NCBI RefSeq assembly: GCF_963676685.1 | Contig: NC_092347.1 | Location: 84,816,001-84,880,000, forward strand | Length of the DNA stretch: 64,000 bases | DNA from: Mytilus edulis | Lineage: Eukaryota | Direction of reading: 5' to 3' | In this document: positions 1,526 to 51,085 of the stretch, piece by piece | Layout: each line of letters begins with the position of its first letter | Position numbering within the stretch: the first letter of the stretch is position 1 | Made by a program: the position numbers and the translations under genes | The notes under the pieces: generated by a model | What the model saw: only the letters and a program-made list of their open reading frames with translations | What the model was told of the DNA's origin: nothing | Database searches by the model: none

Positions 1526-3389
1526 CACTGTGCTTAAACGGCTGTGGGTAACTTAAGTTACCCACAGCCCAAGATGGAGCCGCCTTGCGTCGGTTAGATA
1601 CTTTTCTTCTATAGAATAACAATACCACGAATGCATCAACTTAAACAACTGAATTTAAAAGTTGTATTAATCGTTTAGGGAAACCCCTAAATTGGAAAGG
1701 TGATTAAATTCTACAAAATAAACGATCACAGCACGATTTTAAAAAACACTTAGGCTGTCCGTAACTTCAAAACAACTTGTCCGTAACTTTTTTCATCATA
1801 CCAATAGAGATGTCCGTAACTTTCAAAGAATCGACATACGCGGATGTAATGTTTAAACTGATGATAGAGATTGCATCGAATACATATTCACAAAACGAAG
1901 TAGATGTCTAGTATGATATAATTCATTGTATCGATGGAAGACAAAATTGGGAAAATATGAAAAAAATCACGATAAATCCGCAAAACTCTCATTTTGTATA
2001 ACGTCGGGGTACCCGAATCGCCTAGTTCGGAGGGTTGTTTCCGATCATAGCAGATAAACTGTTGAAACATCATTGTTCGTTTTTATTTTTGAACAAGTAG
2101 ACTACACAAGTATTTTTTACACATACATGTAGCATGTATACACTTACTGATTTTCTGCCAGCAACGTTACGACAAGGGTAGCGTGAATTCGGGATTTTGG
2201 AGGGGAACCCAAATTGCCCAGGCATGCAGTGGATAGACTATACGAGACTTAAGTGCACAAACTTTTCCCGTCTTTTTGAAAAAGCCAAAAACACTTTTCT
2301 CTCATCCCCACACAAACAAATCCCATCAGCATTGACAGTAAAATAAAAGGGGTGTCAATCTGGACACACTGGGACGTTGCGCACGGTGATATTGCGGCAC
2401 CCTGGCCAAGATTTACAGTAAATGGGAAAACTTTTAAAAAAAAAGGACATTTTGTATAAATGAATAAACCTAGTTTTACAGCTAGCTGCATATTTCATTT
2501 GTATGCAAGTTGCATCAAATCTCATTAAACTGAATAAAACTAAAAGACACAATAGGTAAAAGTCAGTGACAATAAAAGGAAAAGAGCAGTCAACATAACT
2601 GTAACAATTCGACATAGTATATAAAAATATAAATAACTACGTAGGACAACAGGGTAATTTAATAGTCTAACAACCCCTGATAACATACAAAGAGAGAAAA
2701 AAAAACATACTAGGAAACATATTCAAAAAATCATAACACTATAACTAACTGGTGGGATGTATAAATACCGAGCCTCGTCAAAGAGTATTCATCAAAATAC
2801 ACATAGAAAGAAACAGAGGTGAAGGTAAACCGCAAACATATAATTAAACTCAAAACATTAAAGAGTATGGAAAAGCCTTGGTCTGACAAGCCAAAAACGT
2901 CGATAAGACGCACATCAGTAAATAAAAGTTCAAACCATAACCAGGATGGAGTACCACAAACCCCACATAAAACTTCTGTGGTGTAAGTATGATGCGTTGA
3001 TAAAATCACATTTGGTGGTGAATGAGTAGTATAAACGGCCGCGAAGGTTACAAATATGATGTTAATTGTCTTCTAATTTTAAAATTTTAAATCAAAAGTT
3101 ACCCACATCTAAAAATAAAGTTACGGACAGTCTGCTTAGTTTCGATAAAAAAGTTACGGACATATTATGCATTTTTTAAAGTTGACCTTGCGCTTTAGTG
3201 AACTCTATATTAACAAATTTATGGTAATTGTTAGTCATTTCTTTATTCAATAATCCTATAAAGATTTACATTCTGCATGAAAAACGTCGCAAAAGGTACA
3301 TTTTGTATGAATTAAATATCAACGAGTTTAGAGTCCGCCATCTTGGGCTGTGGGTAACTTAAGTTACCCACAGCCGTTTAAGCACAGTG
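1526..3389. mobile_element. Non-autonomous DNA transposon, Transib/RAG-like ends
   Basis: 52-bp perfect TIRs starting CACTGTG, 5-bp TSD TAAAT (1521-1525, 3390-3394), subterminal TGTCCGTAACTT x3 at left and inverted x2 at right; no transposase ORF. Confidence 0.85.
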
Positions 3390-4908: not shown

Positions 4909-7900
4909 GTACATGCAACAAGACAAGTTTATTGAATTTAACCCTGATTTAACCTATTTAGCTATTAAAATTTGAGTGCCCATTATCTCAAATTATTATA
5001 TCTGATCTTATCTAGGGCAAAATTATATATGCTTATAAATTACGGTTGATGATTGATTCAAAATTTAGAGAAGCCATTTTTATAAATTATAGTGTCATAC
5101 ATGTAAGTTTGTGATTTGACACACTGATAAATCTGGGACCAAGAGATAGTTGCATGTACTTAATTGTCTTTGAAAAACAATACACCTTATCGCTATTTGT
5201 CCGCCAATACTGGACATCACAAAATTATATATATATGACATCAAATTTTTATGGGAACTTTGAAATAGTAAATAGGCACTGGCTACGGTTACATGGAAAT
5301 GTAACAATAATAAAAAATATTATTGTTACATTGGAGAGTAAATGCCGGAATGCATGGTTGGGTAAGGACCGGCTTAATTACGAATGTAACAATAATTATT
5401 GAGGCTACGGTTACATTGCGTTATTGTTACATGAAAAAAGCAATGCACGATGGGACTAGTAATATGTACTAAATAATGAAAGTTGAGGACATTTATTACA
5501 TACATTTATAACATACAATTTATTTACTGTAATTTTTTATTCACAATGACAATTTCTACAAATCCAGTAAGTTGTTTTTAAAGTCCGACACATTTTTGAT
5601 GAACGAAATTACGTCCTCCACGCATACGTGTACATACAGAATTTCTTAGTATTTAAGTTACAGTTAGCAAACTTTGCTTTTGATTATCAATTTGCGTCAA
5701 GTTATAAAGCTGTATGAAATGTATGTCTTGATATTCTTTCAGTTTCATTTAAAACGCATCCCAAGTTTTATTTTTTTCACCATAAACAAAATTGGTCCAA
5801 AATATAATGACAGTAATAAGAGTAGGTGTGCAGTTAAATACTTTAAAAAAGTGAAACCATTGAACTATATTTTTCGCCTTTGACAGTCACACTCCTAATC
5901 TTGAGTAGTATCTTTAAGAACATCAAAACCATTAATACGTAGTAAAACTATTCAAGTTGTACACCATTTGTTGAATAATAATATTTTATTATTTATCAGT
6001 ATTAAACTACAAGTAATGTTTGGTACATATGAAATAATGAAGCAATACAACTATAGAAGATTTAAGTTTAATCAATCTAGCGTACATTGCTGTTTTTCAT
6101 GTAACAATAAAGTAATGTAACCGTAGCCTCAGTAATTATTGTTACATTTGTAATTAATCAATTCCTTACCCAACTTTGCATTCCGGCAATTAGTCTCCAA
6201 TGTAACCGTAGCCAGTTCCTAGTAAATATCTGATGCCACAGTGGAAAAGTGATTATTGTATATATGACGTCAGAAGTTCAAGCAGGACAGATTCTTGGGT
6301 CCAGCGGGACAGATTTTCAAATGACAAGGTGTATATACTTGATTATAACACTATGTACTTATTTCACTAATAATTTTTTGAGAAATGTCACACGGTCACG
6401 AACTTGCTTTAAATTTTCATTCTGCTGTTGTCTATATCTTTGAACTTTGTTAAGTTGTAATAAATATTATCTTAGGAAATACATTGTACATGTAGTGCTA
6501 AAGACACCTATTTCTGTTGTCAGAATAAATCATGGCAGACCTTCCAAATACTTTTTTTTTGGTCAACAGTAAGTTATTTTGTCTTCTCACAGCCAAGTGG
6601 CAAAGTTAATCATTTGTCACTGAAAAAAAAATAATTGGAAAACCAAAATCAGGGTTCACACTTAGACAATCGAGTCATATTAGTCAACAGAACTCCTAAA
6701 AATCTGTCTGGATTCATCATTTTCAAAACTGGTATTTACAGTCCAAGGTTTGCATTAATATTGTAAGATATTGCATCAACTTTGCCATGGCCTTAAATGA
6801 GGAGTCACCAACATTGCAAGGGCTGTAAAGCAAGTCAAGGTCGTTAAACACTTCCATCATCAACCCCTTATATTTTTTTTCAACATGATACTACATTAAT
6901 ACATGAACATGTGTAGTAGATATAAAAACAAAAAAAGTAATGTATTTGGGTAGAGTGACTTAACAACATTTTTTAGTATTTCCCTATCCATGGTACAATG
7001 GGCTCCATATTATTTTACGGGTAGGTCTTTTCACCACCGCACACTGCCGAACACCACCGAACACCCCAAAAGTTTATTACTTTGTCTTTTACCGTTATAA
7101 ATGTGACTTAAATATAATATTCATGTTAGGCCACCCTTAAAAAAATGTTTGTTTGGCATTGCCGACCCACACTATCAGCAGGTGGGTAGGTAGGTAGGGA
7201 TTTTTTTTATTTTTTTACATTTAAAAGCTTTATACATGTAAATCATACAGTCTCTAGATCAATGTTGTCTAAAAGATTGCAGCATTGTTGTGTGTACATG
7301 CTGGTGGTTTCTTTGAAAGAGGTCAACTGTCAATTTCACATTCTACATCATGGATAATTTCATGTAAGACAGTCAGTTTTATTGGCAGAGTTAAACAAAG
7401 CACCCAGAAAAAAACACAGAACTGAGACAGGAAACTGACAAATTAACCATATAAAATGTATGACGTGAAAAATTAACTTTTATTGTGGGACTGTCCATTG
7501 AACAGAGGCCTGATGTCACATCTTGAAGTTGTGGTCACAGTTTGGTAAAATTACCATAAGTTAAATGGCTCAACCACTACGGCTCCTTGTACAAATGGAC
7601 AAAGATTTAAAGCTTTGATTGTTTGCTTTGGTTTTATAAACATCACTTTCTACAACATATGGGTAATTTCATGGCAGTCAGTTTTAGTGGCGTACTAAAC
7701 CGTAGTACTTGAAGGAAAACGCCAACCTGCAGGAGGAAACTGACTAAACCTTATCACATATGACATGAAAATCAAACCTTAATTTTGCAACTGCCCAACT
7801 AGGGCTCAAACCAATACCTAGAGGCTAGTAATCATACATGCCATACAAACACACCTATACTGCCCCTGATAAGTTTTGAGGATAAAGGATCTGTACCAAA

Positions 7901-16258: not shown

Positions 16259-16991
16259 TGAGAGCACCTAAAAAATAATTGCACACATTTTATGTGATCA
16301 TTATTAGGCCAACTAAAATTAATTAGTAGATTTTCATCCAAAGTTTTGAAAAAAATGGGGCGGGTGGGAGGATTTTATTTTTTAAATTTTATTGAATGAA
16401 ACCTTCTTTTGATCGACGTGAACTTCATATATATATGACGCAAGTGTTATTATTAGCTTATATCATGTACATGTGTAAACATGTATTAAGAATCGTACAT
16501 ATTTTTCATATTCTTAAATAAATAACTCTGATTGGCAAGGACTGTTCTACATGAAATTGCTACATGTACTTAAAAAACCTACTTTCAGTATAAACAGTAA
16601 AATCATGGAGAAATTCTCTATTCAGTTGGACTTACCAACTCCAAATTTATTTTGCTTTCGAAGCGATGGTTTGTAGTCCCCATAAAAAAATGCAAATGCA
16701 ATGGTATGCAACACATGTATTATGAATGAAATGAGAACTCAAACAGTGTTGGAACTGGTAGGGTTGTGCTTTTAAGATTTAAGTTATGCAAGACTGAAGC
16801 CAAGACTAAAGCATATATACATAATTAGTATTTACATTGTAAAACATGAAGTTGTTTAATGACTCTTTTAAAAGTGTTTTGTGTTTTTAAACAAAACCAA
16901 TAGCCATGGGTAAATCTAAGGGCTTTCTATAACACAATTTGTATGTTTGCCGACTTTTTAACTCAATATAGATCAATATACGGTCATAGAT

Positions 16992-17016
16992 CACAGGGGC
17001 TTGTTAAGCCCCTGTG
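16992..17016. other. 25-bp hairpin insertion with 7-bp TSD (candidate transposon excision footprint)
   Basis: CATAGAT|CACAGGGGCTT-GTT-AAGCCCCTGTG|CATAGAT. Confidence 0.7.
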
Positions 17017-17173
17017 CATAGATCTAACAAGTTCGTGCTTTTGTCAATTTCTATAATCCAGTTATATTTTTTCTACCAATTTGTTGCACGATTCTTGCGC
17101 TATGGAAATCATTCACAGCCCAAATTTGCTGACATAAAGTCGATGTAGTATTAAAAAATCTACGGTTTTCTAA

Positions 17174-24330: not shown

Positions 24331-24929
24331 CTACCTGTGCTCTACTTTGTGGTTTCTAACTCCGTTTCTGTATCACCAATAGACCACAGACACAAAGGAC
24401 TTATTTTAACTCGCAGAAAGGAAATTTCAGATGTGCTTACATTTAGAAAATTGTATAGTTAACTGTGTCTCAGAAAACCAATTATCATACACAATATATG
24501 GATCATTTCTACTGTATCTATTATTAAATAGTCAAAATACGGGTAAACTCCAGAGTTTGGTGTCTTGCTCGTTGAGGCTATATGTTATTGTGTGTAGCAA
24601 TACTGTTGAAAAACAGATGGATAGAAATTTCTAAAATAAAGGAGGACATTCTTGAAATGTGGACAAGTAATTTCCGTGAGCTACCGAATCCAAACTATAC
24701 GTATACAGGACTTTGTTTAAGAAATATATTGGCTCTTATCCCAGCAAAATGCCATAATCGAAACCAATAAAACAGGAGGAAATACCTGATGTAAAAAACA
24801 TCCCACAAATGCTGCTGACAGGAGATGTAATGGCACCAGTATTGAAGAAACCCTAGCGAACTTTAAAATAAATACAGTGACCAATATCTTCACTTTAATC
24901 CAGTAGAGCATTAAAATCCAGAATAGATA

Positions 24930-25625
24930 CATGCATTAAGATCTATCTACTCCAAAACCAACTACAAAGAATATTTAATGAAGCCATACTTTTGATATTT
25001 GCCGCATTCCTGGCTTCGGAAAGTAATAATACAATCTTGTGAATATCACCAGGAAATCCTGCTACTATGTTTGGATGCAGAAAAGGCTTTTGATAAACTA
25101 ACATGAAATATTATTCAACAAGGTATATCACTATGGCATTGGTAGGGATACTACGTCATATGTATAGATAAAAAGCATTGTATTAGATGGGGATCTGGTT
25201 TCTGACAAGATATCTGTCGGCCAAGGAATTCAAATCAGTAAGGAGGAAAACTATCAACCTCCTTATACAAATCCTCTAATAATGTAATTGTAGATAGTGT
25301 AACAGAAAGTGGATTATGAAGCCATAAGGGGACAATAGCTATTGCTACACTATAGGTGACACATTAGTTAGTACTGGTATGGACATTGTATACCGCCATG
25401 CATAGACCAAATATAAAAAAGAAGATGTGGTATGACCAAGTCAAAATCAAACCACAAAAGTCGTACCTCGTATCCTATAATACCCAGCAGGAAATGGTAG
25501 TTAATATTTGCAGCTCTCCGATAGATAGAAATACATCTGCAAAACATCTAGGTATAACCAGAAATAAAAAGAATAAAACAGATATTGAGAAACTTAACGT
25601 AGGAATGGCCACTATCTAAAGTACG
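24930..25625 (+). pseudogene. Decayed non-LTR RT fragment
   Basis: Broken frames encode LDAEKAFDK, LFNKVYHYGI, GGKLSTSLYK and KHLGITR. Confidence 0.65.
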
Positions 25626-25631
25626 TTGGGG

Positions 25632-25665
25632 CAAGGATTTGTATAGTATACTATACAAATCCTTG
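25632..25665. other. 34-bp perfect palindrome with 7-bp TSD (candidate P-type excision footprint)
   Basis: GTTGGGG|CAAGGATTTGTATAGTA-TACTATACAAATCCTTG|GTTGGGG. Confidence 0.85.
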
Positions 25666-25796
25666 GTTGGGGGAATAAAAATAAAATAAAAAAAAAAACC
25701 CAAAGGAAATGCAAAACTGAAAGTGCTTTTAAAAAAGAAAAAAATGAACCAAATGAAAAGCTTTTAAAGAGATGAAAACAACGCATCATAAATTTG

Positions 25797-42423: not shown

Positions 42424-42546
42424 GTACAAATCCTTGCACTGACTACTCATTAATTTAACCAAGGATTTGTACATACAAATACAAATCCTTGCACTGACTA
42501 CTCATTAATTTAACCAAGGATTTGTATATACAAATACAAATCCTTG
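42424..42546. other. Locally duplicated CAAGGATTTGTA...TACAAATCCTTG hairpin; 32-bp copy 42515-42546 has 7-bp TSD ATTTAAC
   Basis: Same terminal 12 bp as the palindrome at 25632. Confidence 0.75.
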
Positions 42547-42968
42547 ATTTAACATATTAGTAGTACACACAAAATTATATAGAATTTTCAAAACATTATA
42601 TAATCTAGACAATACTTGTATAAATAAAGCATTAGTTAGCAAATGATATTAACAGCATATTCTCTTCTCTGAGAACGGAAACAGTTCATATAAATACCGA
42701 AAAACGGTTCATGAATTATAAGTTGACTGGTACCTGATAATTTTTTCAAAGATGAGCTGGCTGGTCATAGTACAGATACAGTAAATAGGCGGAACACTAA
42801 AAAAACTGAGATGCTGATCTCTATAAAGAAAGATCTATTATTGAAACCTTGGTGTAAAAATTATCACGAATTTCAAAAAGCATCCAACAGTAATGAGTAA
42901 GCGCATGCCAAGAACAGATAAAAACACGAGACCATAATGATATTTTTGAGGGATTGTCTTGTTTTCAT

Positions 42969-47390: not shown

Positions 47391-48243
47391 GGGAGAGATC
47401 CGTTTGCGCCAAAAATGCGTCCTTTTGCGCCACAACTTTTTTTCTCTAATGCTACGTTTGCGCCACCTGTTTAAAAATTACATGGTATCAATTGCGCCAA
47501 AAATAAAATATACGATTGCGCCAATTTAAAGAAAAACATTCCTTAAACACAGAAATTTTTTTCTATTACAGTTTCCTGATTTAGATGGCAAAAGGCAATC
47601 TAAAAGTGGAATACAAATTAAATGTCCATTCCTGAATCCATGTATTGTATGCAAAAACACCTTCTGCCCCGCATACAAAGATATTTCAAGTTAGCTTCAC
47701 AACCGAGAATAACAATGCCACTATCAATATCATTTACTAAAACAAACTCTTCTTCTTTATTTGTGATCACTATACCTCAATTAAATTTTTTGAAATTCTA
47801 CTGAACTTTTTAGTTGGGCAAAGAACAGTTATCTTCTCTCTCTGTACATAGCTTTTCTTTTGCATGCTGTTCGTAGTATTTGACGCTCTAACTTTTGTGG
47901 GTCTGTCTTATGTGTATGTGCAATAAAATTAACGGTATCAATTTTCTTGCACCAGATGCGCTTTTCGACAATACATGTCTCTTCAGTGATGCTCGTGGCC
48001 AAGCCAAAATATTTGAAATCCAAAGCTTATATAAAAGATGAAGAGCTATAATTCAAGATTTCCCCTCAGACAAAAATGATACTAAATATATATTAATCTT
48101 TGATATGTACGATCAATATGTGTTCAGGTAAATTGGCGCAAATGAGTTCCGAAAACTGGCGCAATTGATACATTTGAAGAAAATAAAATTGGCGCAAATG
48201 ATACCCCTGAAAAACAGTAATTGGCGCAAAAGGAGTGTTGCCC
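47391..48243 (+). mobile_element. MITE with arrays of TTGCGCCA subterminal motifs (copy A)
   Basis: GGG...CCC ends, 7-bp TSD ATTTAGA, multiple TGCGCCA at left and inverted at right. Confidence 0.82.
47949..47992 (-). ncRNA. Type I hammerhead ribozyme with intact core
   Basis: Minus strand GCATCA CTGAAGA GACA TGTAT TGTC GAAA A GCGC ATC TGGTGC: stems I and II pair, AUC cleavage triplet, one stem III mismatch. Confidence 0.8.
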
Positions 48244-50330
48244 ATTTAGATGTCTGTCACGCAGGATTTAAATAACCTTGACCTCAATTTCATGGTTCAT
48301 TGGTCAATGTTAAGTTTATGTGATACTTGTAGTAAAACCTTCGTATTACATACTTTCAGCATGAATCCAATAATAATTAAAACAGCATGTGCACTCTTGT
48401 TTCATTTTAGGTTCAGGTAAAAAAGCACAAATTTTTTATATTATAAACTTATATTTAATATTGTTTGTATTCTGCTAATCCTGTTATTTGTTGTGATTTG
48501 GTGTTTTAGACTTGTTTTTTTGTTGTTGAAAATAAACTATCTATAGAAAAACGTTCATGCAAACCTGCTAACTTTAATACCCATTGAAGGGGGATTTCCC
48601 AGATGAGAGTTTTTGACCAAAGTCCTTAGTTTTGATCTGAATAGCACAAGGAATACATTTAAAGGAGCTTAAAAGGGTATTTAACCACATATATACCCAT
48701 TAAAATAGTTCAGTTGATAGCACCTATGATATGTATACAAGATGCATTTTAAGGTTCTCATGTGCAAAAAATGCCCTTTTGAGATTTTAAGAAGCTGGCA
48801 GCAATGAGCATGTGTGTTTTGGCATTATTTGGTTTGTACTTTTAGATTGTCTCCTTGTTTAAAAAATTTCATAATTAATTCCCTTATATTTGTAAACTCA
48901 ATTATGCCCTTTATGTTACTTTTAATTGAATGTTGTATTAATTATTATTGAGAGATTAGACTTAAATAAAATATTGATTTGAATTGAAATGCCCTTCCAG
49001 CAAGAACCAGATATTTAGCATTGCAAGCTCCATGTCCACCCTTATTAATTTGATTCTACAGACAAATAATAAGATTACTAATATATACATGTATAATATA
49101 TAATTGAACTATTAAATACACATGTATACACAGAGAATTTAGATTGTTACTGGAAACTTTATTACTTTTTCACGTGGAAAGTGAATAACAGTTTATAATT
49201 TGATTTCTCTTTTTCGGAATTTTACTGAATTATTATGGAAAACACATTTTCATTAACCACATGTTGTTCTTCATGAAAATTAAGAAAAAAAAATTAACAA
49301 TTGTACACATGGTCTAGAAAGATCTTTTTGTTTGTTTTAAAGAGAGGATTAAACATTATTTTTGTGGCATGTGTTTCTGCTTTCCAAAACAATTATTTAA
49401 TGCTACATTTGAAATAAACATAAGTATGATGTCCAGTAATGACATCCTTTTTAAATGGTTTTCACTACAACAAAATGAAAGCCATCTAACTAGCAGCATG
49501 GTGATTTATTATGAAGACTTGCGATGTGCTCCTTGCCTAAAAACTTCACAGCAATTGGAAACTTTGTTGGCAATAAAGACATTTTCCCGCTGAGTTGAAG
49601 ACCCATTGGTTGCCTGTCAGCTGTTTTCTGCTCTTTAGTCGGGTTGTTGTTATTATTGTTGTTGACATATTCCCCATTTTCATTCTCAATGTAGATGTAC
49701 ATATAGATAAGAAATTATGATTTATTATTTTTCTAATGATTATGCTCCCTTAAACTTAGAAGATTGACCTAAATATACTACTGCATTCATTTGTTAGCCC
49801 AAATCATCTGAAACCAGAAACAAACAAAGATAAATGAAGCTTTGTAGTTAATGAGAACATGATTTTTAGATGTACTTATCCACAAGAATCATAATCAGTT
49901 TACTTTGTTAGGAATTAGGAGTCTTTGAACTTATGATTGTTTGCCCAGTGCCCAGCATGGGGTATGTCTGCATGCTCAGAAATGTTCTTTCATTATACCA
50001 TTACAGTAACTTGACTGTTAGTGTTGCTCTCTGACTATTGCAACTCATTCACAATTCTGACCAAATTGCAATTTATTATATAAAACCAAACTGTTCAACT
50101 GGTCAGAATTTTGAACAAACTGAAGAATCAGACATCATTTGAATTAAAACATCATATATTCGGTATTAAACATGTGTGAAATAACAATATATACATCTAT
50201 GTATCATACAAATAAGTACTAAGATGTGGTATTATTGCCAGTGACACAACTATCTATCAGAGTTCAAATGATATAATCATTGTTTGTAATTAAATATGTA
50301 TCAAAATTTTATGTATAGCTATAGTTCTAT

Positions 50331-51085
50331 TGGCAGCAGTCCTTTTGCGCCAATTACTGTTTTTCAGGGGTATCATTTGCGCCAAATTTTATTTTCAAAA
50401 TGTATCAATTGCGCCAATATTCAGAACTCATTTGCGCCAATTTACCTGTACATATATCTATCATGAATATTAATGATTACTATAGATGTATTCTTATTTT
50501 TGCCCCAAAAGGTATCACATGTTAGGAGATATTTCATCATAAAGATGAGTTTCTGAAGAGAATTAAATGACTTAAGCAGCATTAGACAGTCAATGTACAG
50601 AGAGAGAATAAAACTTATTGCTTTGCTTAACAAAGATATGCCAATATAGAAAATAGAAGTTTTTGCTCTTTATGTTTTAGCCACAAATGTTGATGACACA
50701 GAGCTTTGTTCCACCATGCGTATGGGCTTTATTATTATTATGAACTATTATTAACTATTTTATGGATTTCATCCTTCAATGTTTGTGTTTTTGGACAATA
50801 AAAAGAAGTTAAAAGCTACTACATACATTAAATTGGGAAGTACCCATGCAGCAGCAGTAATAAAAATATGTTTTAGAAAAGGAAACATGTGCCGTGTTAC
50901 ACTGCCGGTTCCAAGTCCGAATAAAGGAGAAAGGAAGTAATTTTCTTTAAACTGGCGCAATCGCATGTTTTATTTTTGGCGCAAATGAAACAATCTAATT
51001 TTAAAACATGTGGCGCAAACGTAGCATTTGAGAAAAAAAGTTGTGGCGAAAAAGGATGCATTTTTGGCGCAAACGGATCTCTCCC
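50331..51085 (-). mobile_element. Same MITE family (copy B), inverted relative to copy A
   Basis: Ends are reverse complements of copy A ends; TSD GTTCTAT/GTTCTAC; different interior. Confidence 0.8.

What the first reader, a model, noticed from the sequence alone, without database searches (positions are those of the whole stretch)
25625..25672. 34-bp (17+17) perfect palindrome with 7-bp TSD: signature of a P-element-type excision footprint
Seen: GTTGGGG|CAAGGATTTGTATAGTA TACTATACAAATCCTTG|GTTGGGG. It is too short to be a normal MITE yet has CA...TG ends and a clean target duplication. Known: P-element transposase makes 17-nt staggered cuts, and end-joining leaves roughly 15-17 nt of each TIR between the TSDs; P-superfamily TSDs are 7-8 bp. 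Inference: a germline record of P/THAP9-family excision in a mollusc, implying the 17-nt cut geometry is conserved.
Basis: partly seen in the sequence, partly recalled or inferred. Interest (0 to 1): 0.72.

Follow-up and report, generated by a model that had tools for sequence, protein, structure and literature searches.

The report
Excision scars of mussel P transposons
This 34-base mirror-image insert is one of more than a thousand similar stubs in a mussel-like genome, most likely scars left when a relative of the fruit-fly P jumping gene cut itself out, and their lengths suggest that this family's enzyme cuts 20 bases into its own ends, and two sister families 19 and 18, rather than the fly's 17.

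Summary
In detail: a perfect 17+17 palindrome (25632-25665) in a 7-bp duplication. Three public runs hold the empty site. The genome has 1,205 such stubs. Long elements with the same ends have 31-37-bp TIRs and 7-bp TSDs (18 of 20 exact), and five carry a P-type transposase (6P5A, Z 32.8; catalytic and GTP-contact residues kept; no THAP domain). The P-footprint reading therefore holds, but 'conserved 17 nt' fails. Arms stop at nt 20: 500 arms reach nt 20, only 20 reach nt 22; 34 of 50 stubs exceed 34 bp. Two sister P families cap at 19 and 18. In all three the cap falls where the TIR repeats its own nt 3-8 (register chosen post hoc), which would allow the fold-back duplex of the fly transpososome. 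The 17+17 symmetry here is probably a trimmed, uncommon repair product. This scan noted such scars, with family-specific depths, in other genomes. Verdict: new variant of a known kind; cut depth inferred, not assayed.

The parts
25625..25631 (+). Left copy of the 7-bp target-site duplication (GTTGGGG); the only copy in the empty allele
25632..25648 (+). First 17 nt of the family-A TIR (the TIR of long elements is 35 bp; inferred donor tail 20 nt, here trimmed by 3)
25649..25665 (-). First 17 nt of the opposite TIR, joined with no overlap and no spacer
25666..25672 (+). Right copy of the 7-bp target-site duplication; absent, with the palindrome, from contigs of runs X1, X2, X18
42508..42553 (.). 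Second stub of the same family in the window: 32 bp (42515-42546), 7-bp duplication ATTTAAC, a tandem TACAAA duplication at the junction

Best explanation
The insert is most likely the repaired donor site of a P-superfamily cut-and-paste transposon whose enzyme is inferred to leave 20-nt, not 17-nt, single-stranded tails. Shown: a 7-bp site was duplicated; long elements of the family end in a 35-37-bp TIR beginning with the same 17-mer; some encode a P-type transposase; stubs keep up to 20 nt of each end. Inferred steps: (1) an element inserted here and made the 7-bp duplication; (2) the transposase later cut one strand at each tip and the other strand 20 nt inside each TIR, leaving two identical, non-complementary 3' tails on the chromosome; (3) end joining, probably polymerase-theta-like, trimmed and joined the tails, using self-complementary TA/AT spots or short templated additions; here both tails lost AGA and were joined at nt 17, whose last two bases are such a TA; (4) the scar was inherited through the germline. 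Cut depth appears to be family-specific (20, 19, 18 nt in three families of this genome). It may be set by an internal repeat in the TIR that lets the new 5' end pair with the 3' tip of the transferred strand.
For: Empty allele in 3 of 4 runs. 1,205 closed stubs with exact 10-bp ends, control 0. In the first 50 stubs less 1 duplicate: 7-bp TSD exact in 29 of 49, at most 1 mismatch in 42 of 49; 40 distinct sequences in 49. 18 of 20 long elements have an exact 7-bp TSD and none an 8-bp one. Transposase inside the TIRs in L064 and in four sister elements with G at nt 17, three with an exact 7-bp TSD. PF21787/21788/21789; sole PDB sequence hit 6P5A, E 3.3e-15; fold Z 32.8, rmsd 3.3 A over 361 residues, next hit Z 9.5. 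D467/D575/E826, D613-x2-H616 and the positions of all 8 GTP-contact residues listed in PMC7776569 section 8 are kept. Cliff at nt 20: 500 arms reach nt 20, 20 reach nt 22, although the TIR runs to nt 35; 18 of 21 arms that reach nt 20 stop there against 14 of 53 at nt 17 (Fisher p 4e-6). In 7 of 9 short elements with one long arm (6 of 8 independent events) the other arm is exactly 20 nt, as expected from one-sided gap repair joined to an intact tail. Family B arms: 28 of 94 reach nt 19, 9 reach nt 20 (7 of these share that G with the partner arm), 0 reach nt 21; family C: 25 of 92 reach nt 18, 7 reach nt 19; contrasts between families p 0.0006-0.003. Junction classes match those of fly P donor sites (PMC2895639 Table 1).
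Against: No cleavage was assayed; cut depth is read from repair products. No allele with the full element at this site was seen. Arms decline steadily from nt 13 to 20, so most tails were trimmed and 17 is also a common stopping point (14 of 98). A minority class passes the cap: 20 arms reach nt 22 or more, 10 of them stop at nt 23, and two family-C arms stop at 21. 7 of 49 family-A stubs have 2 or more TSD mismatches. The samples are the first rows listed (mostly contig C1), not random, and need exact 10-bp ends, so stubs under 20 bp and old ones are missed. The family-C TIR comes from one element and family B from two. For family C the 7-base pairing score ties at n=15, 18 and 25; only the run length singles out 18. 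The contigs with the empty site are 90-99% alike and come from other organisms' labels (A, B).
Confidence: 0.82

Rival explanations
1. One reading: the enzyme leaves 17-nt tails as in Drosophila, and arms of 18-20 nt come from repair synthesis off the sister chromatid or from chance junction bases.
For: This copy is exactly 17+17. 14 of 98 arms stop at nt 17. Sister-templated repair does occur in this family: stubs of 50-140 bp with one long arm exist. Most fly repair products involve incomplete synthesis followed by end joining (PMC2895639, passage).
Against: No step at 17 (39 of 53 arms go on) and a steep one at 20 (18 of 21 stop). Chance predicts about 1 arm at nt 20, 21 were seen. Synthesis has no reason to stop after exactly 3 bases in 480 of 500 arms. 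Caps differ between families. The partner arm of long-arm events is 20 in 7 of 9.
Confidence: 0.05
2. The stubs are extreme internal-deletion derivatives or mini-MITEs of the P family. Their length limit reflects instability of long palindromes or favoured microhomologies, not the enzyme's cut.
For: Some sequences recur at unrelated sites (one 35-mer in 5 of 49). Long perfect palindromes are known to be unstable (established knowledge, not tested here). Stub lengths run on up to 140 bp and one 841-bp derivative was seen.
Against: 40 distinct sequences among 49 stubs, with varied junctions. Blunt cap+cap joins with no microhomology recur in each family (40 bp in A; 38 bp in B and 36 bp in C). 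The cap applies per arm, also when the other arm is long and the element is not a perfect palindrome. Stubs lack all sequence beyond the TIR tip; fly transposase needs internal sites (PMC7776569 section 7).
Confidence: 0.11
3. The ends belong to another superfamily and the P-type gene is cargo or a nested insertion.
For: Most long family-A copies (about 4.2 kb) hold no transposase, and the transposase has no THAP domain.
Against: Five elements in two subfamilies have the same gene layout inside these TIRs. No inner TIR pair framing the gene stood out among the 25 longest inverted repeats of L064. The non-autonomous copies share 948 bp of the left end and 142 bp of the right end with L064. 7-bp TSDs are reported for the P-superfamily members Galileo and 1360 (PMC3698922, passage).
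Confidence: 0.02

Closest known systems
Drosophila melanogaster P element and its end-joined donor sites (PMC7776569 sections 7-8; PMC2895639 Table 1)
   Same: TSD-tail-junction-tail-TSD layout; microhomology, blunt and templated-insertion junctions; RNase H fold with GTP-binding insertion, DDE triad, D(2)H motif and GTP-contact residues; TIR longer than the tail.
   Different: Inferred tail 20 nt (sisters 19, 18) against 17; TSD 7 bp against 8; TIR 35-37 bp against 31; no THAP domain, a Cys-containing N-terminal region instead; one long ORF in the G17 subfamily; a second, convergent C2H2 zinc-finger ORF; scars are natural, inherited and over a thousand, not induced in crosses.
Galileo and 1360 (P superfamily; PMC3698922, PMC4168063, passages)
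   Same: 7-bp TSD; palindromic target preference (here A/G-T-n-A/T-n-A-C/T; Galileo GTANTAC); intronless transposase; DDE and D(2)H.
   Different: Galileo has long TIRs and a THAP domain; neither paper contains the word 'footprint' in its main text.
Zebrafish Pdre2 / THAP9 (PMC10983969, passages)
   Same: Non-insect P-type transposase acting on its own elements.
   Different: 13-bp TIR, 8-bp TSD, THAP domain; the passages seen describe larger donor deletions and give no stagger length.

Membership tests
P superfamily transposon (parent element) | RNase H transposase with GTP-binding insertion, homologous to fly P transposase | tested here: met
   PF21787, PF21788, PF21789 over cut-off; 6P5A E 3.3e-15; Foldseek E 2.3e-19; Z 32.8, rmsd 3.3, 361 aligned
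P superfamily transposon (parent element) | DDE triad and D(2)H motif | tested here: met
   D467, D575, E826, D613-x2-H616 align with fly D230, D303, E531; motif as in PMC4168063
P superfamily transposon (parent element) | GTP-contact residues | tested here: met
   K667, K682, V683, S691, F720, D721, N724, D823 match the eight residues listed in PMC7776569 section 8; GTP use itself not assayed
P superfamily transposon (parent element) | TIRs with 7-8-bp TSD | tested here: met
   31-37-bp TIRs; exact 7-bp TSD in 18 of 20 family-A and 3 of 4 G17 elements
Canonical P / THAP9 family | [quoted passage not shown] | tested here: not met
   No THAP hit in the ORF at E<=1; none listed for 59 homologues; two THAP-like regular expressions found nothing upstream in two elements. 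A small divergent upstream exon is not excluded.
Canonical P / THAP9 family | 17-nt staggered donor cleavage | tested here: not met
   Indirect test: arm cap at 20, 19 and 18 nt; no biochemistry
P-type excision footprint | TIR tips only, between an intact TSD, absent from the empty allele | tested here: met
P-type excision footprint | Same site carries the full element in another allele | tested here: inconclusive
   Six runs laid on the site showed only the empty allele where they covered it
MITE (self-mobilised) | Homogeneous length and sequence across copies | tested here: not met
   18 lengths and 40 sequences among 49 stubs
   Conserved C190, C243, C252, C255, H153; whole-model search gave only Z 5.4-6.2 for residues 90-248, none to RAG1; the domain folded alone failed (pLDDT 35)

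The most novel reading that the evidence does not exclude
The depth of the P-type staggered cut is not fixed at 17 nt but is a family trait (20, 19 and 18 nt in one genome), written in the TIR: the inner nick falls where the TIR repeats its own nt 3-8, so that the freed 5' end can pair with the 3' tip and form the fold-back duplex seen in the fly transpososome. A THAP-less bivalve P lineage has left about 2,000 inherited scars that record this, far more than its surviving elements.
Probability: 0.5. Interest if true: 0.75.

Novelty: new variant of a known kind. Interest (0 to 1): 0.6.

Why it matters
[quoted passage not shown] Here natural scars give a sequence-only read-out of cut depth for three uncharacterised P-type enzymes, and a rule linking depth to an internal TIR repeat that can be tested with oligonucleotides and an intact 889-aa ORF. 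The scars are also a large set of germline end-joining junctions from one defined break in a non-model animal, and a class of 41-47-bp presence/absence variants that repeat libraries would not label as transposon history.

Tried and rejected
A left-end pattern taken from L030 matched only that locus: it was a repair junction, not a TIR. (non-G at nt 21; 474 arms) added nothing. No transposase ORF in the 4.2-kb copies; long ORFs in L059 and L063 are a reverse transcriptase and a zinc-knuckle ORF, probably insertions. Of 10 transposase loci checked for ends, 3 gave no convincing TIR plus TSD (L152/153, L154/155, L160/161, whose output was cut inside the L142/143 listing). The N-terminal domain folded alone failed; the Atlas gave no usable hit; RAG1 was not listed for that region. 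The left flank has RT-like motifs by eye, but tblastn with one RT did not hit it, so 'decayed LINE' stays a lead. The third tiny element in the window (16992-17016) has only one relative with exact 10-bp ends; its parent was not sought. Ghanim 2019, Beall and Rio 1997 and Majumdar and Rio 2015 are not held, so the pairing register in the fly structure could not be checked. Ten paper searches listed no title or abstract on genome-wide natural P footprints or on staggers other than 17 nt; subscription papers and Repbase reports are outside the library, and no supplements were read. Searches of earlier notes by protein and for the fold-back idea found nothing; one search listed no note on these stubs in this genome among the 8 of 14 shown.

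Full report
Observation. The window holds GTTGGGG at 25625-25631 and 25666-25672 around a perfect 34-bp palindrome. A second stub with the same ends lies at 42515-42546, and an unrelated one at 16992-17016; ten shuffled windows gave one such hit in total. Contigs from runs X1, X2 and X18 leave the window sequence at 25631 and continue with the bases that follow the second 7-mer; two of them also map to the right flank, with 35-36 letters between where 37 are expected for an empty site. The 41 bases are therefore an insertion. X16 did not reach the site, and no run showed a stub or full element there.

A family of stubs. The 17-mer occurs 1,824 times in G000. The pattern of two exact 10-bp ends up to 30 bases apart gives 1,205 elements. 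I fetched the first 50 listed. They are 24-50 bp long; 34 of 50 exceed 34 bp and 45 of 50 are at most 40 bp. After dropping one tandem duplicate, 29 of 49 have an exact 7-bp TSD and 42 of 49 at most one mismatch; there are 40 different sequences. None is a blunt 17+17 join.

The parent. Extending the end to nt 28 gave 96 matches, among them 22 facing pairs 1.5-10 kb apart (my count from the listing). Of 20 fetched, 18 have an exact 7-bp TSD, one has two mismatches, and one is a fold-back of two left ends. TIRs are 31-35 bp. Most are non-coding copies of about 4.2 kb. L064 (9,827 bp) holds P-type transposase frames of 667 and 229 codons and a convergent C2H2 ORF. Four loci whose transposase is 87-89% identical over a 202-aa query lie in elements with a 37-bp TIR differing at nt 17; three have an exact 7-bp TSD (11.8-14.2 kb), the fourth sits in an inverted duplication. 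One has an uninterrupted frame giving 889 aa from the methionine at which its closest homologue starts. Its only PDB sequence hit is fly P transposase, the model matches 6P5A at Z 32.8, and catalytic and GTP-contact residues are kept. No THAP domain was detected. The closest named homologues are Mytilus proteins (96% identity), so the host is probably a mussel.

Where the arms stop. In the fly, one strand is cut at the tip and the other 17 bp inside the 31-bp TIR (PMC7776569 section 7); the donor keeps 17-nt non-complementary 3' tails, which are joined through short microhomologies, bluntly or with templated insertions (PMC2895639, passages and Table 1). If that held here, arms would stop at 17. 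They do not: of 98 arms 53 reach nt 17, 39 nt 18, 28 nt 19, 21 nt 20 and 3 nt 21. Genome-wide, 500 arms of closed stubs reach nt 20 and 20 reach nt 22. Of 26 joins without inserted bases, 15 cannot be built from tails of 17 nt or less. Among 25 loci with an arm of 28 nt or more (24 reported by the script), 10 close within the locus and 9 are under 150 bp; in 7 of those 9 the other arm is exactly 20 nt (two of the seven are one duplicated event), often joined through its last bases to a matching spot in the long arm. This is what one-sided gap repair followed by end joining to an intact tail would give. Against a single clean cut: 10 of the 20 arms passing nt 21 stop at nt 23, which may be a minor second nick.

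Sister families. Two other P-type elements with 7-bp TSDs were found around transposase hits. Their ends give 702 (family B) and 96 (family C) stubs. I fetched 48 of the first 50 listed for each and dropped 1 and 2 duplicates. B caps at 19 (28 of 94 arms reach it, 9 reach nt 20, none nt 21; no insertion-free join needs more than 19), C at 18 (25 of 92, then 7). The families differ at p 0.0006-0.003. Exact TSDs: 30 of 47 and 30 of 46.

A possible rule. In the fly strand-transfer complex the transferred strand loops out and doubles back to pair with the 5' part of the non-transferred strand, and this helix is needed for transposition (PMC7776569 section 8). Such pairing needs the bases just inside the nick to resemble bases near the tip. 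Scanning cut positions 10-27, the longest run of pairing with the complement of TIR nt 3 onward falls at 20 in family A and G17 (6 pairs), 19 in B (7, two wobbles) and 18 in C (5). The register was chosen after looking at family A, so B and C are the tests; in C the summed score ties at three positions. I could not read the structure paper, so the fly register is unchecked.

This copy. Both arms end at nt 17, whose last two bases, TA, are self-complementary and a common stopping point (14 of 98 arms). The 34-mer can arise by trimming AGA from both tails and joining, or by priming at a TA, copying three bases and re-annealing; both are inference. The match to the fly's 17 is probably coincidence.

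Novelty. P donor-site scars are known from fly experiments. Ten library searches (listed under Tried and rejected) showed no title or abstract on natural genome-wide P scars or other stagger lengths; the library lacks most subscription papers. Papers seen: PMC7776569 (passages, sections 7 and 8), PMC2895639, PMC10983969, PMC3698922 and PMC4168063 (passages only); others as search listings. Earlier notes of this scan report such scars in other genomes, two with family-specific depths; my counts for family A and the B and C listings preceded that look-up. The finding is a new variant of a known kind: same chemistry by homology, different inferred geometry, in a THAP-less lineage. Interest 0.6.

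Noticed in passing
window 42508-42553: Second family-A stub (32 bp, TSD ATTTAAC) with a tandem TACAAA duplication at the junction, typical of templated end joining
   Followed up: partly
window 16985-17023; L257: 25-bp palindrome with a 7-bp TSD (CATAGAT) of another family; one relative with a 7-bp TSD in G000; parent unknown
   Followed up: partly
L064:687-1907; L145:3271-4572: A second, convergent ORF of 406-433 codons with one C2H2 finger, about 51% identical between the two subfamilies, with weaker matches in families B and C; weak Tnp_P_element_C hit (E 0.046). Function unknown
   Followed up: partly
L099:208-2877, residues 90-280: THAP-less N-terminal region with conserved H153, C190, C243, C252, C255, modelled with good confidence but without a clear fold match
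   Followed up: partly
L083, L224-L239 (family A); L303, L336 (family C): Minor class of arms ending 3 nt past the cap (23 in A, 21 in C), after AGG in both; possibly a second nick position
   Followed up: no
L142/L143 (G000:C10:60587087-60599135); L160/L161: P elements flanked by kilobase-long inverted duplications of host DNA instead of a TSD; L074 is a fold-back of two left ends
   Followed up: no
G000:C4:31894466 and nine other places: A further P-type family with at least ten copies of identical score (798-codon frame), five within 0.6 Mb on C6; its ends were not resolved
   Followed up: no
window 1526-1577 and 3338-3389: 52-bp perfect inverted repeats, each with an internal 30-bp palindrome, 1.76 kb apart
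   Followed up: no
window 47391-51085 and 5325-6206: Elements with long inverted ends (145 and 114 bp)
   Followed up: no
window 24900-25620: Reverse-transcriptase-like motifs in broken frames left of the stub, followed by a poly-A run; not confirmed by tblastn
   Followed up: partly
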